In this document: positions 440 to 63,652 of the stretch, piece by piece
How positions within the stretch are numbered: the first letter of the stretch is position 1
How the letters are laid out: each line of letters opens with the position of its first letter
From: Pecten maximus
Lineage: Eukaryota
NCBI RefSeq assembly: GCF_902652985.1
Contig: NC_047021.1
Coordinates: forward strand, 41,106,001 to 41,170,000
DNA length: 64,000 nt
Direction of reading: 5' to 3'
Notes under the pieces: generated by a model
What the model saw: the letters and a program-made list of their open reading frames with translations, nothing else
Told to the model about the DNA's origin: nothing
The model's database searches: none
Program-made: the position numbers and the translations under genes

Positions 440-5620
<5,181 letters not shown>

Positions 5621-62000: not shown

Positions 62001-63089
62001 TTGAATTAAAATTTTACACCCACAATTTTAATGCAACTGTCATCATACCTTGTTTCAGTAATAAGTCCAAGATACTGGAACGTCGCCTACGTTATTTGAA
62101 GGATCACTTCCAGTTTCAATTATACGACAATATAACGCGCTCAATATTTGCAATGCACAAGCTCGTGTTTGCGTTCCTACTTTGTGCAAATCTACAGTTG
62201 TGAGTATTCACATGACAATGTGGAGTATAGATATAGTATCGTCTAGTCTTGTATAGTCTGTAGAGACTGTCCGTACTCGTAACCAAGAACTCAACGCTCT
62301 TACTGCATACTCGCTACACTCGTGTTTTCACTCTCAAACACGAGTACCGTACTGTTATGCATACTCACTATCATAAATTTGTGTTATATACTCACTTTCC
62401 TCTATACTCACCTATACCCCTCGATACTTGCTATGCCCCTGTATACTCACCTATACACATCTATACTCACTTTGCCCCCTGTATACTACTAAAAAATTTA
62501 GTGCTTTTTGTACAAGAATTTTGAACCCTACGCTGCTTATTGATGTGAATCCTTACCAATATAAAACATCGTTGAAATGTCTTTTCCAAAATTTTATATA
62601 TTTTTTTTTTATTATTTATTTAATTTTATTTGAAATTAGTATTGACTGGTATCAAATTTCAGATTGGGTTCAAAATTACGTACAATTACAGTATTTACAA
62701 ATATGTCTATGGGGTGCGACATTTTATTATTTTCAAACACATCCCTCTGAAGACATATTTTTAAGTGCTGTATAATTAGTCAGAGACATGCATGCTTTTG
62801 TCTCTGGTATTTCTCCTGTGTTGTCATATATATTAAGGAGTCTCCACCCATATGCCTGCGAAGACTTCAGACAAGGGGGATAAATCTTGTCTGTCACCAC
62901 GAGCTTGTATATAGCTAGCTATATATGTTTATTCTGCCTGTTTTTCAGCAACAAATCCAAGATTCTGGAGCGTCGTTTGCGATACCTTTCTGACTACTTT
63001 ACATACAGTCTCTACTGTAATGTTTGTCGATCCCTCTTTGAGAAAGACAAACTGCTCTTTTCTTTCATTCTCTGTTCAAACATGTTGTT
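23061..63089 (+). CDS. DNAH12: Axonemal inner-arm dynein heavy chain, DNAH12-like; tail, linker, AAA1-4, stalk/MTBD and AAA5; continues beyond the window
   Basis: Exons: 23061-23311, 23794-23884, 24469-24483, 25373-25399, 28909-29098, 29732-29807, 30385-30543, 31029-31112, 31453-31564, 31961-32306, 32932-33023, 33512-33690, 34359-34620, 35006-35212, 36027-36148, 36466-36745, 37461-37646, 38260-38460, 39598-39792, 39913-40317, 40724-41000, 41551-41876, 42315-42407, 42834-43226, 43547-43776, 44155-44563, 45114-45299, 45764-45889, 46230-46418, 47248-47393, 47723-47861, 48028-48194, 48648-48840, 49287-49492, 49997-50071, 50516-50606, 51123-51301, 51867-52059, 52503-52664, 53254-53448, 54180-54476, 55157-55414, 55939-56160, 56813-57343, 57768-57913, 58290-58504, 58972-59164, 59469-59661, 60051-60223, then 62059-62199 or 62949-63089. 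P-loops [33 protein letters not shown]; also [10 protein letters not shown] and [12 protein letters not shown]. Tail motifs ([38 protein letters not shown]) recall DNAH12 rather than DNAH7/3; that subtype call is from memory. Confidence 0.88.
23518..23680. mobile_element. MITE with short terminal inverted repeats (related copy at 55444-55633)
   Basis: agtttcatcaacat ... atgttgataaaact ends; internal ttt(t/c)ccataggaaagca is shared with the 55444-55633 copy. Confidence 0.6.
24469..24483 (+). CDS. DNAH12: 15-nt microexon of the dynein N-terminus (LDPRA), phase 0-0
   Basis: ttctgcag|CTTGACCCGAGAGCG|gttagt with a ctaat branch-like motif upstream; frame-preserving between phase-0 neighbours. Confidence 0.55.
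25373..25399 (+). CDS. DNAH12: 27-nt microexon of the dynein N-terminus (MMSKERRIR), phase 0-0
   Basis: ctccttcaacag|ATGATGAGCAAAGAAAGGAGGATTCGG|gtacgt; purine-rich and bridges PDFPQE to [11 protein letters not shown] in frame. Confidence 0.7.
25405..25770 (+). repeat. Degenerate ~35-45-bp tandem repeat rich in CTAAC, directly downstream of the 27-nt microexon
   Basis: taccttatatggtc x6 (25408-25610); CTAAC at 25430, 25471, 25546, 25590, 25631, 25669 and 25705. Confidence 0.75.
26187..26480 (+). mobile_element. tRNA-derived CORE-type SINE
   Basis: GGGGCCGCG...CTCAG...TTAGA head, TGTGACCTTGGGCAAG CORE motif, 3' tail aaatgaccatgactgctcatagggcgataaacccc. Confidence 0.75.
27877..28604. repeat. 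(TATAGTTACTGGTA)n minisatellite, 14-16-bp unit
   Basis: About 50 near-perfect units in the dynein intron. Confidence 0.95.
30058..30350. mobile_element. Putative non-autonomous DNA element with internal inverted repeats
   Basis: gggttgaga/tctcaaccc, tgtctcac/gtgagaca and ttttctcttac/gtaacagaaaa inverted pairs. Confidence 0.5.
32360..32565 (+). mobile_element. Degenerate V-type SINE copy
   Basis: gggtttgattccctgatcggatg...ggggtcac...gtgggttttct...aataagacccttt aligns by eye with 21007-21240. Confidence 0.6.
33801..33971. mobile_element. 5'-truncated copy of the TACTGTAAAC-TIR MITE
   Basis: ggactccttttgttc...gatatcaatttgcgtaatct...cacgtttacagta. Confidence 0.7.
36752..37132. mobile_element. 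Putative non-autonomous element immediately after a dynein donor site
   Basis: cacgagtgaaa repeats, inverted pairs tgaaaaatatcaaaa/tttttgatatttca and tattacattttt/aaaaatgtaata, palindromic ttttcactagtgaaaa. Confidence 0.5.
37953..38192. repeat. Direct duplication of about 120 bp
   Basis: aaaaggtcaaaggtcacacttgatta...gtgaaaattagacagaaaagct occurs twice. Confidence 0.85.
38505..39480. repeat. 66-bp minisatellite (about 14-15 copies) filling most of a dynein intron
   Basis: tataatctggacacctgtataaaccagacaactaggtcccactgtatacatttctatgtaaccctg; accounts for the repetitive ORFs at 38493-39472. Confidence 0.95.
42110..42270. mobile_element. MITE with CAGGG...CCCTG termini (hAT-like)
   Basis: cagggataactctgga ... 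tccagggtgaaccctg imperfect terminal inverted repeats; internal tggccca motifs. Confidence 0.55.
46477..46620. repeat. Direct duplication of about 73 bp
   Basis: tatgataaatttttggattttatttgaaac...ctatttgaaaaataaat occurs twice. Confidence 0.8.
46974..47178. mobile_element. MITE with TACTGTAAACG/CGTTTACAGTA ends (TA-flanked, Tc1/mariner-like)
   Basis: Terminal inverted repeats; interior shared with 57362-57520, 59686-59899 and 33801-33971. Confidence 0.8.
48290..48606. repeat. ~38-45-bp tandem repeat (about 8 copies) with a TCACTCCAGTGA quasi-palindrome
   Basis: ttcactccagtgaatatttttt(g)taattaaaaaaaaatct units ending about 40 nt before a dynein acceptor. Confidence 0.85.
51419..51645 (+). mobile_element. 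tRNA-derived V-type SINE with (AAAC)n tail
   Basis: gccgcagtggccgagtggttaaggtg A-box, gagttcgaaa B-box, gtttttctctaggtactccagctttcctcca core, tail aaatgaccctggctgttaataggacgttaa(aaac)n. Confidence 0.8.
52152..52382. mobile_element. CORE-type SINE copy with an internal inversion
   Basis: Forward match to 26271-26310, then the reverse complement of the 26312-26476 segment, then a forward (AAAC)n tail. Confidence 0.7.
53476..53991. mobile_element. MITE-like element whose right terminal motif is tandemly amplified (unit about 42 bp)
   Basis: Left aagtaagcccc; right ggggcttatttgaggataaatatggta repeated about 8 times. A reverse copy of the motif lies at 37753-37790. Confidence 0.65.
55444..55633. 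mobile_element. MITE related to 23518-23680
   Basis: ggccccagtttca ... gagaaactcg ends; tttcccataggaaagca core. Confidence 0.55.
57362..57520. mobile_element. TACTGTAAAC-TIR MITE copy
   Basis: tactgtaaac ... gtttacagta. Confidence 0.8.
59338..59420 (-). mobile_element. tRNA-like SINE head fragment
   Basis: Minus strand reads tagcttagtggt ... agttcgaggccc (A/B boxes) with no intact cloverleaf. Confidence 0.5.
59686..59899. mobile_element. TACTGTAAAC-TIR MITE copy
   Basis: tactgtaaacgtgg ... ccacgtttacaata. Confidence 0.8.
62059..62199 (+). CDS. DNAH12: Dynein alternative exon A (divergent paralogue, candidate mutually exclusive exon)
   Basis: tgtttcag|...|gtgagt, 141 nt, phase 2-2, open: [47 protein letters not shown]. 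Not in the supplied ORF track. Confidence 0.85.
62949..63089 (+). CDS. DNAH12: Dynein alternative exon B (canonical sequence, candidate mutually exclusive exon)
   Basis: tttttcag|...|gtaagt, 141 nt, phase 2-2: [47 protein letters not shown]. Confidence 0.9.
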
Positions 63090-63652
63090 GTAAGTATGAG
63101 ATTGAGTGAAATGTTGGAATGGCTTTGATGTGATTACTTTTGCTGTGTTTTATTTACATTTTGTTAATATTTCAATTCATTAACTCTTTCGTTCTGGTTT
63201 TTGTGTGTTTTTTATTGAGTGTTGCCAAAAGACCTTTTTGACTATTTAATTATAAGAAAGTAAGAAAGAAAGCAAATCATAAAGAAAACGTTCATCTTGT
63301 AATTTTTTAATACAAATCTTATTTATTTATTTATTTGTTTTATTTACTTTTTTTCTTCTTTAAATGATTCTGTCTTGGATTTAGTCAATTAAACTGTAAT
63401 TTTCTTCTATTTTAATTTTTTTTCTAAAGGTATTTTGGCAACATTTTGTTTGACGTGATTTCTTACAATGGTTATTGTTAAAGCCAATTTAATATTTTGG
63501 TATTTGTAATATATTTGTTTGGTTATTTCTAAATATAGTTTTCATATAATCTTAAAATTGATTTTTTTTTTTTTTTTTTTTAAATATGAGCAAACAAGCT
63601 GGTAGGGTTTAACAACAAACTTTCAAATGAAAATCTCCGCAGTTCTTAGTAT

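What the first reader, a model, noticed from the sequence alone, without database searches (positions are those of the whole stretch)
62200..62480. Intron after exon A carries five exact antisense copies of exon A's donor plus nested stems: possible RNA-structure splicing switch
Seen: the exon A donor GTGAGTAT (62200-62207) has its perfect reverse complement ATACTCAC five times (62361, 62388, 62404, 62443, 62463). Other complementary pairs are GAGTATAGAT 62223-62232 with ATCTATACTC 62459-62468, AGTATCG 62235-62241 with CGATACT 62422-62428, and GTACTCGT 62273-62280 with ACGAGTAC 62340-62347. There is also a 10-bp hairpin ACTCGTGTTT 62318-62327 / AAACACGAGT 62336-62345. Several pairs nest in antiparallel order. 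The usual exclusion mechanisms do not apply: the intron is 749 nt (no steric clash), both exons keep frame (no NMD filter), and both are GT-AG. Inference: a fold-back could hide the A donor from U1, making B the default, in the manner of Dscam-type competing RNA pairing. Alternatively, TACTCAC could act as distal branch-point/SF1-type motifs.
Basis: partly seen in the sequence, partly recalled or inferred. Interest (0 to 1): 0.7.

Follow-up and report, generated by a model that had tools for sequence, protein, structure and literature searches.

The report
Repeat cluster beside swappable dynein exon
In the cilia-motor gene DNAH12 of what is probably a bivalve, one of two swappable exons is followed by a short, copy-variable repeat that is predicted to be able to pair with that exon's splice site but more likely serves as a binding strip for a splicing protein; the exon pair itself is real, one version is seen spliced in RNA, and the pair is shared with distant animals.

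Summary
All listed motifs are exact. They lie between two 141-nt alternative exons (A, B) of DNAH12. RNA contigs from three studies splice A and skip B, and the pair recurs in clam isoform models and in 23 of 72 related loci. The region folds better than shuffles (z about -3.8; rank 2 of 58 donors in the gene), but the donor is not unusually hidden: opening cost ranks 12 of 58, shuffled introns hide it as well, and scrambling all five copies saves only 1.4 kcal/mol. Four copies belong to, or abut, a 20/39-nt minisatellite; one contig lacks a 39-nt unit. No related exon-A intron (0 of 45) carries its own donor's reverse complement. Distal branch points are excluded (19 AGs downstream). UACUCA is also the canonical STAR (GLD-1/Quaking) hexamer, so I rank a protein-binding enhancer first (0.4), a neutral repeat second (0.3) and RNA pairing third. 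New leads: two crossing 11-bp helices into the interiors of exons A and B, and five-fold GCAUG (Rbfox) enrichment in related A-B introns. Close relatives could not be tested.

The parts
60051..60223 (+). constitutive DNAH12 exon upstream of the pair (P)
   Evidence: tblastn with a named DNAH12; joined to exon A in RNA contigs
62059..62199 (+). alternative exon A, 141 nt, divergent version
   Evidence: spliced to the next constitutive exon in contigs of X1, X3, X9, and to P in X1 and X9
62157..62167 (+). exon A segment complementary to 62898-62908 (11 bp) and, shifted, to 62335-62344 (10 bp)
62200..62207 (+). exon A donor GTGAGTAT
   Evidence: sequence; loose ends at 62199
62223..62241 (+). two further AGTAT-containing segments of the 5' arm of the predicted rod
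62260..62270 (+). intronic 11-mer complementary to exon B 63005-63015
62318..62345 (+). 10-bp hairpin, centre of the predicted rod; carries about half of the excess folding signal
   Evidence: scrambling one arm moves z to -1.7 (one scramble)
62361..62395 (+). ATACTCAC copies 1 and 2, upstream of the detected array
62399..62492 (+). 20/39-nt minisatellite with copies 3-5, two degenerate units and a terminal TACTAA; six TACT[AC]A hexamers in 62362-62492
62421..62459 (+). 39-nt unit absent from one contig of run X1 (likely a shorter allele)
   Evidence: one contig, depth 4
62789..62794 (+). TGCATG, Rbfox-type motif in the A-B intron
   Evidence: motif identity from PMC3585155 passages
62898..62908 (+). 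intronic 11-mer 41-51 nt before the exon B acceptor, complementary to exon A
62949..63089 (+). alternative exon B, 141 nt, the version that matches human DNAH12 3179-3224
   Evidence: use in this species inferred, not observed

Best explanation
The five ATACTCAC copies are a lineage-specific, copy-variable minisatellite in the intron between two alternative DNAH12 exons, and they most likely act as a cluster of UACU(C/A)A binding sites for a STAR/Quaking-type protein that would promote exon A, their match to the donor being a by-product of UACUCAC being the reverse complement of a GUGAGUA donor. Shown: the exon pair, splicing of A with B skipped, the array, the motif counts, a STAR-domain gene in the genome. 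Inferred: protein binding, the enhancer effect, and a shared older layer of control by Rbfox through (U)GCAUG in the same intron. What prevents joining A to B is not shown; protein repression of B or the two crossing 11-bp helices are the candidates.
For: UACUCA is the canonical GLD-1 hexamer and two hexamers bind better than one, best 6-12 nt apart (PMC2905418 passages); the gaps here are 10, 14 and 17 nt for three neighbouring pairs (sequence). ACT[AC]A occurs 7 times in the first 300 nt against at most 4 for the 57 other donors; six TACT[AC]A in 150 nt is the maximum of 1,577 windows. Multiplicity matters for protein binding but not for donor pairing: only the last copy pairs, the other four cost 3-9 kcal/mol more, and four of six hexamers are mostly unpaired. 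In the five period-20 units ATACT is intact in 5 of 5, the CAC that would give the G-C pairs with the donor in 3 of 5. STAR proteins bound downstream promote inclusion (let-2, PMC4165533; QKI, PMC9122611; passages), which fits A being spliced in 3 of 4 runs. The genome has a STAR dimer domain over cut-off. Related introns point to protein motifs at this place: GCATG 35 in 10,795 nt of 16 A-B introns against 6 in 9,669 upstream and 4 in 6,854 downstream; a conserved double TGCTT block in 12 related loci with no supported structure; a C-rich ACTC array in L044 that does not fold (z +0.6) or hide its donor.
Against: The hexamer cluster is not conserved: ACT[CA]A is at most 2 in 24 related exon-A introns and no higher than after B (p 0.46). 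Quaking binds UACUCA 5- to 41-fold more weakly than UACUAA. With the relaxed consensus another donor of the gene scores 8 against 7 here. Arrays with three ATACTCAC are common in this genome (4,687 overlapping matches, control 2,623), so a neutral array can look like this. The match to the donor is 8 of 8, two letters more than the hexamer needs, and donor-plus-double-copy is rare in the genome (2 loci, control 1). The related loci are not independent of each other. No binding or tissue data.
Confidence: 0.4

Rival explanations
1. The array is a neutral minisatellite that happens to contain the donor's reverse complement; A/B choice is run by other elements such as the Rbfox site.
For: Tandem array, one contig lacks a whole 39-nt period, such arrays are abundant genome-wide, no alignable similarity to related introns, 2 of 57 constitutive introns fold as well through inverted repeats, donor accessibility is ordinary.
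Against: Donor octamer followed 120-181 nt later by two copies occurs at only 2 loci in 918 Mb, the other a self-complementary satellite; it falls beside an alternative exon; the ATACT core is better kept than its flanks; the bivalve-like L044 has a C-rich ACTC array at the same place, the two ranking first and second of 104 regions; few substitutions in the element in three contigs, though not significant (p 0.08-0.15).
Confidence: 0.3
2. Two crossing helices mask exon interiors reciprocally: exon A (62157-62167) with 62898-62908 loops out the A donor and favours B; 62260-62270 with exon B (63005-63015) loops out the B acceptor and favours A; either prevents an A-B join. The 10-bp hairpin, whose 5' arm copies the exon A segment, would gate this.
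For: They are the two strongest non-homopolymer exact stems in the 4.9-kb cluster. Intron shuffles reach them in 18 and 6 of 1,000, both together in 0 of 1,000. The pair ranks 1 of 55 consecutive exon pairs of the gene. The exon A helix is in the best fold with P 0.99. The geometry resembles srp and ATE1.
Against: Found after the fact. Each helix alone ranks only 4 of 58 in real sequence. Forcing the exon B helix costs 10.7 kcal/mol. In 17 related exon pairs the exon A helix has no counterpart (lowest p 0.13), and an intron-start to second-exon helix reaches p 0.015 or less in only 3, at different exon sites; a looser duplex test shows no trend.
Confidence: 0.18
3. One reading: the copies fold back on the exon A donor and compete with U1, lowering A use; copy number would tune it.
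For: z -3.78, rank 2 of 58; donor paired with P about 0.9 to 62464-62470; isolated duplexes of -10 to -12 kcal/mol against -7.4 for U1 (loop costs ignored); 5' half aligns to the reverse complement of the 3' half better than 299 of 300 shuffles; the shorter allele keeps the fold.
Confidence: 0.12

Closest known systems
STAR-protein control of alternative exons (C. elegans ASD-2 on let-2 exons 9/10; GLD-1 UACUCA repeats; mammalian QKI)
   Same: Repeated UACU(C/A)A hexamers in the intron just downstream of an alternative exon; position associated with inclusion.
   Different: Here the hexamers sit in a minisatellite after the upstream exon, are mostly the UACUCA form that Quaking binds more weakly, and are not conserved in the relatives seen; binding untested.
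Rbfox control of mutually exclusive exons (unc-32 7a/7b, egl-15 5B/5A)
   Same: (U)GCAUG in the introns of an exclusive pair; enriched about five-fold in related A-B introns.
   Different: Only one site in this window's intron, 160 nt before B; function untested.
Competing RNA pairings in mutually exclusive splicing (Dscam1 docking/selector, srp bidirectional pairing, ATE1 R1-R3-R4)
   Same: Several sequences complementary to one site; crossing helices around two duplicated exons.
   Different: Known cases rest on conserved intronic elements and compensatory rescue; here no conservation was found, the shared site would be the donor itself, and the long helices reach into exon interiors.
Donor-sequestering stems (SMN2 exon 7 TSL2 and internal stems)
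   Same: A stem predicted to cover the 5' splice site.
   Different: The predicted stem is 8 bp, closes a 150-260-nt loop and gives no unusual protection in the model.
Distant branch points enforcing exclusion (OGDH 4a/4b)
   Same: Branch-point-like motifs far from the acceptor between two exclusive exons.
   Different: Motifs are 160-270 nt from the donor (threshold about 50) and 19 AGs follow them.
RefSeq DNAH12-like isoforms X1, X2, X3 of Mercenaria mercenaria
   Same: Equal-length models that differ only in this exon; X2 is the A type.
   Different: Three versions there, two here; annotation only.

Membership tests
Mutually exclusive exon pair | Tandem homologous exons of equal length and phase | tested here: met
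   141 nt each, 81 of 141 nt and 62% of residues identical
Mutually exclusive exon pair | Transcripts carry one exon and skip the other | tested here: met
   A joined to the next constitutive exon in 3 of 4 runs; one exon per isoform in named clam models
Mutually exclusive exon pair | B used and A+B absent in this species | tested here: inconclusive
   Exon B lay outside the stretch laid; no A-B join seen; contig ends 27 nt into the next exon suggest a second path (inference)
Dscam/srp/ATE1-type competing pairing | Several sequences complementary to one site | tested here: met
   Five copies against the donor; two partners for the exon A segment
Dscam/srp/ATE1-type competing pairing | Elements conserved in relatives, with compensatory change | tested here: not met
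   0 of 45 exon-A introns, 17 exon pairs; only distant relatives were available
Dscam/srp/ATE1-type competing pairing | Disruption and compensatory rescue | not testable with these tools
   bench test
Donor-sequestering stem | Donor predicted paired | tested here: met
   P about 0.9 at equilibrium
Donor-sequestering stem | Donor less accessible than ordinary donors because of the stem | tested here: not met
   rank 12 of 58; shuffles equal; ranks 39 and 25 with local folding
Distant branch point exclusion (OGDH type) | Branch point within about 50 nt of the upstream donor | tested here: not met
   copies at +162 to +271 (threshold from PMC7969005 passages)
Distant branch point exclusion (OGDH type) | Long AG-free zone to the acceptor | tested here: not met
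   19 AG after 62470; zone about 30 nt
STAR/Quaking-regulated exon | UACU(C/A)A hexamers, clustered, near the exon | tested here: met
   six in 131 nt, top of 1,577 windows
STAR/Quaking-regulated exon | Sites single-stranded | tested here: inconclusive
   4 of 6 mostly unpaired in the model; prediction only
STAR/Quaking-regulated exon | Sites conserved in relatives | tested here: not met
   at most 2 in 24 distant exon-A introns
STAR/Quaking-regulated exon | Protein binds and splicing depends on it | not testable with these tools
   a STAR-domain gene is present
Rbfox-regulated exclusive pair | (U)GCAUG in the flanking intron, kept across relatives | tested here: met
   12 of 16 A-B introns; 3.2 against 0.6 per kb; loci not independent
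DNAH12 | Best sequence match and gene-wide collinearity | tested here: met
   exon B best matches DNAH12 chains, E 1e-20 against 5e-14 for DNAH7; collinear with a named DNAH12 over 59 matches

The most novel reading that the evidence does not exclude
A reciprocal RNA switch: two crossing helices mask the interior of one exon or the other, and a copy-variable minisatellite that mimics the 5' end of U1 and doubles as a STAR-protein strip sets donor access, so that repeat number or protein binding tunes which motor-domain version of an inner-arm dynein is made. It would be a structure-controlled exclusive exon pair in a mollusc, laid over an old Rbfox-marked exon pair.
Probability: 0.13. Interest if true: 0.7.

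Novelty: new member of a known kind. Interest (0 to 1): 0.36.

Why it matters
The solid part is an old alternative exon pair in the motor domain of an inner-arm dynein (between the AAA5 and AAA6 Pfam regions), with a consistent A-type signature and an Rbfox-type motif in the intervening intron of distant animals; four literature searches returned no paper on it. It suggests that these animals make two or three versions of one ciliary motor. The repeat is a clean test case for a general ambiguity: the reverse complement of a GUGAGUA donor is also a STAR-protein site, so sequence alone cannot tell donor masking from protein binding, and one substitution (UACUCAC to UACUAAC) separates them. If the shorter allele is real, natural variation gives a direct test.

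Tried and rejected
Distal branch points: rejected. Known RNA family: none at E up to 1 in 61800-63300. Dispersed repeat or transposon: the 481-nt region matched only itself (that search skips common words) and the unit 15-mer occurs at 2 other loci; the similarity to the C18 satellite is circular, since it was found by the motif. Same duplication in paralogues: no second copy within about 1.5 kb in the 5 paralogous loci with a good match. GTGGGT donors in relatives, suggested by a W after the exon in unnamed proteins: rejected, the W is a TGA read-through, as L048 shows. A docking partner for the conserved TGCTT block of the 12-locus group: none found in 9 loci; consensus fold weak, -1.6 kcal/mol. 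Nova-type YCAY enrichment: 8 here, up to 12 at other donors. Low polymorphism: not significant. Close relatives: prokaryote and viral collections gave nothing usable; protein searches gave exon-level matches only. Exon B use and A:B ratios were not measured; contigs give no levels. Supplements were not read; those of PMC5100056 may list this DNAH12 exon pair.
Full report
Observation. Every coordinate in the finding is right. ATACTCAC occurs five times on the + strand of the window, all within 110 nt, and 7 matches on both strands exceed all 100 shuffles. The region 62190-62480 folds at -63.5 kcal/mol with z -3.78. The copies are not five independent events: 62399-62487 is a tandem array of period 20/39 holding three exact and two degenerate units, and two of the listed stems compete with others for the same bases.

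The gene. The window holds most of an axonemal dynein heavy chain gene, collinear over 59 matches with a named clam DNAH12; exon B matches DNAH12 chains best, at human residues 3179-3224, between the AAA_9 and D6 Pfam regions. The animal is probably a bivalve; this is inferred from the named relatives. Exons A (62059-62199) and B (62949-63089) are 141 nt each and an A+B join would stay in frame.

The pair is real. Of 4 runs laid on 62020-62570, 3 (X1, X3, X9; three studies) have contigs that cover exactly exon A and continue into the next constitutive exon, skipping B; X1 and X9 also show the upstream exon; the fourth contig is unspliced. In X9 exon A lies in a 4,329-nt contig. In X1 and X3 the contig stops 27 nt into the next exon, as expected if a second path ending in GTT (exon B) merges there; this rests on the recalled word length of the assembly. 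Exon B itself was not covered, so its use and the A:B ratio are not measured. Three equal-length Mercenaria models differ only at residues 3234-3277. Among 72 loci from metagenome contigs, 21 show A then B, 2 show A and two B, 24 show A only and 25 B only, many being truncated. Their organisms are unnamed; L044, L048 and L049 resemble the clam A exon.

Does the fold hide the donor? In an equilibrium model the donor pairs with the last copy (P about 0.9), and the fold ranks 2 of 58 donor regions of the gene (donors assigned by script, a few may be wrong). But the cost of opening positions -3 to +8 is 6.6 kcal/mol, rank 12 of 58; it is 5.2 with all five copies scrambled and 7.1 on average with the intron shuffled, 23 of 40 shuffles reaching the real value. 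With pairing limited to 60 or 150 nt the rank is 39 or 25. The z-score is the same without the donor and falls to -1.7 when the central hairpin is scrambled. The other strong folders (55415, 59662) are inverted-repeat elements with ordinary donors. The other four copies cost 3-9 kcal/mol more as partners, so having five adds little to masking.

Conservation. None of the 45 A-type exons with downstream DNA has its own donor's 8-base reverse complement within up to 700 nt (47 A rows less L085, no downstream DNA, and L111, a broken match; 27 after removing near-duplicates). The region does not align to the L044, L048 or L058 introns better than shuffles. All these relatives are distant, so a young structure is not excluded. 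One contig of X1 (depth 4) lacks 62421-62459, one period of the array, with one copy and the CGATACT arm; it may be an allele or an artefact, and the fold survives it. Arrays with three ATACTCAC give 4,687 overlapping matches in the genome against 2,623 for the control, but a donor octamer followed 120-181 nt later by two copies occurs at only 2 loci, control 1.

Branch points. Nineteen AGs follow the last copy and the AG-free zone before B is about 30 nt; the copies are 160-270 nt from the donor, against a steric threshold of about 50 nt (PMC7969005, passages). The alternative is rejected. In two other loci the A-B intron is only 54 and 95 nt, so exclusion may be steric there.

Protein-binding reading. 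UACUCA is the canonical GLD-1 hexamer; Quaking prefers UACUAA by 5- to 41-fold; two hexamers bind better than one (PMC2905418, passages). The intron has five UACUCA and one UACUAA in 131 nt, the most of 1,577 windows, four of them mostly unpaired in the model. ATACT is intact in 5 of 5 array units, CAC in 3 of 5. STAR proteins bound downstream promote inclusion (PMC4165533 and PMC9122611, passages), and the genome has a STAR dimer domain. Against this, related exon-A introns have at most 2 such motifs (24 examined). They do carry other protein-type motifs: GCATG at 3.2 per kb in 16 A-B introns (window included; present in 12) against 0.6 per kb on either side (the reverse complement is also raised, 23 counts), a motif bound by Rbfox (PMC3585155, passages); a conserved double TGCTT block in 12 related loci; and in L044 a C-rich array that ranks with this window first and second of 104 regions for ACTC and C-over-G skew but does not fold. 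These loci share ancestry, so the counts are not independent.

The two strongest non-homopolymer exact stems in the 4.9-kb cluster are exon A 62157-62167 with 62898-62908 and 62260-62270 with exon B 63005-63015. They cross, and each would loop out one of the two splice sites needed for an A-B join, as in srp and ATE1 (PMC4691838, abstract and section 5; PMC7797038, passages). Shuffles reach them in 18 and 6 of 1,000 and jointly in 0; in real sequence each ranks 4 of 58 and the pair 1 of 55. They were found after the fact, the second costs 10.7 kcal/mol to enforce, and 17 related exon pairs give no consistent counterpart. Duplication of one stem arm as a source of competing pairings is proposed in PMC6071210 (first fifth of the text).

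Literature and earlier notes. Searches for dynein or DNAH12 with exclusive exons (listings) returned no paper on this pair; PMC3228551 and PMC5100056 (passages) mention one in cytoplasmic dynein and unspecified motor-domain splice forms; their supplements were not read. SMN2 stems are from PMC9977717 (passages). The scan's index had nothing at this place or in look-alikes and two notes on vertebrate dynein-1. The MBNL and Nova motif names are recalled.

Verdict. Observation confirmed; the donor-hiding switch is possible but poorly supported. Best reading: a lineage-specific repeat that likely serves as a STAR-type enhancer of exon A (0.4), ahead of a neutral repeat (0.3), reciprocal helices (0.18) and donor fold-back (0.12). 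Interest 0.36, mostly for the old DNAH12 exon pair and the testable ambiguity.

Noticed in passing
L051, L052, L055, L057, L059-L062, L064, L065: A group of related loci has only the A-type exon before the next constitutive exon, with no B found between them; loci such as L079-L084 and human DNAH12 have only the B type.
   Followed up: partly
L044:378-1843, L058:3000-4283; proteins P0013, P0014, P0016: Three-exon versions of the cluster (A plus two B-like exons); this window has two.
   Followed up: partly
L043:1103-1156, L042:1258-1352: A-B introns of only 54 and 95 nt, where exclusion may be steric.
   Followed up: no
L066-L076, L092, L094, L101, L105, L107, L109, about +35 to +90 after exon A: Conserved intronic block with two TGCTT motifs and nearby GCATG; no supported structure or pairing partner.
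   Followed up: partly
L044:519-818; L048:667-730: C-rich, G-poor CCAC/ACTC repeats just after exon A in bivalve-like loci.
   Followed up: partly
window 55415-55700, 57370-57540, 59685-59900: Intronic inverted-repeat elements that fold strongly; the last two look like copies of one small palindromic element.
   Followed up: no
G000:C18:19653192 (L113): Self-complementary satellite of about 20 nt period holding both GAGTAT and ATACTCAC.
   Followed up: partly
window 62376: All three contigs that cover it read C where the window has A.
   Followed up: no
P0001-P0003, P0025, P0033: Database proteins called across the exon end read the donor's TGA as W; they are gene-calling artefacts on intron-containing DNA.
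   Followed up: yes
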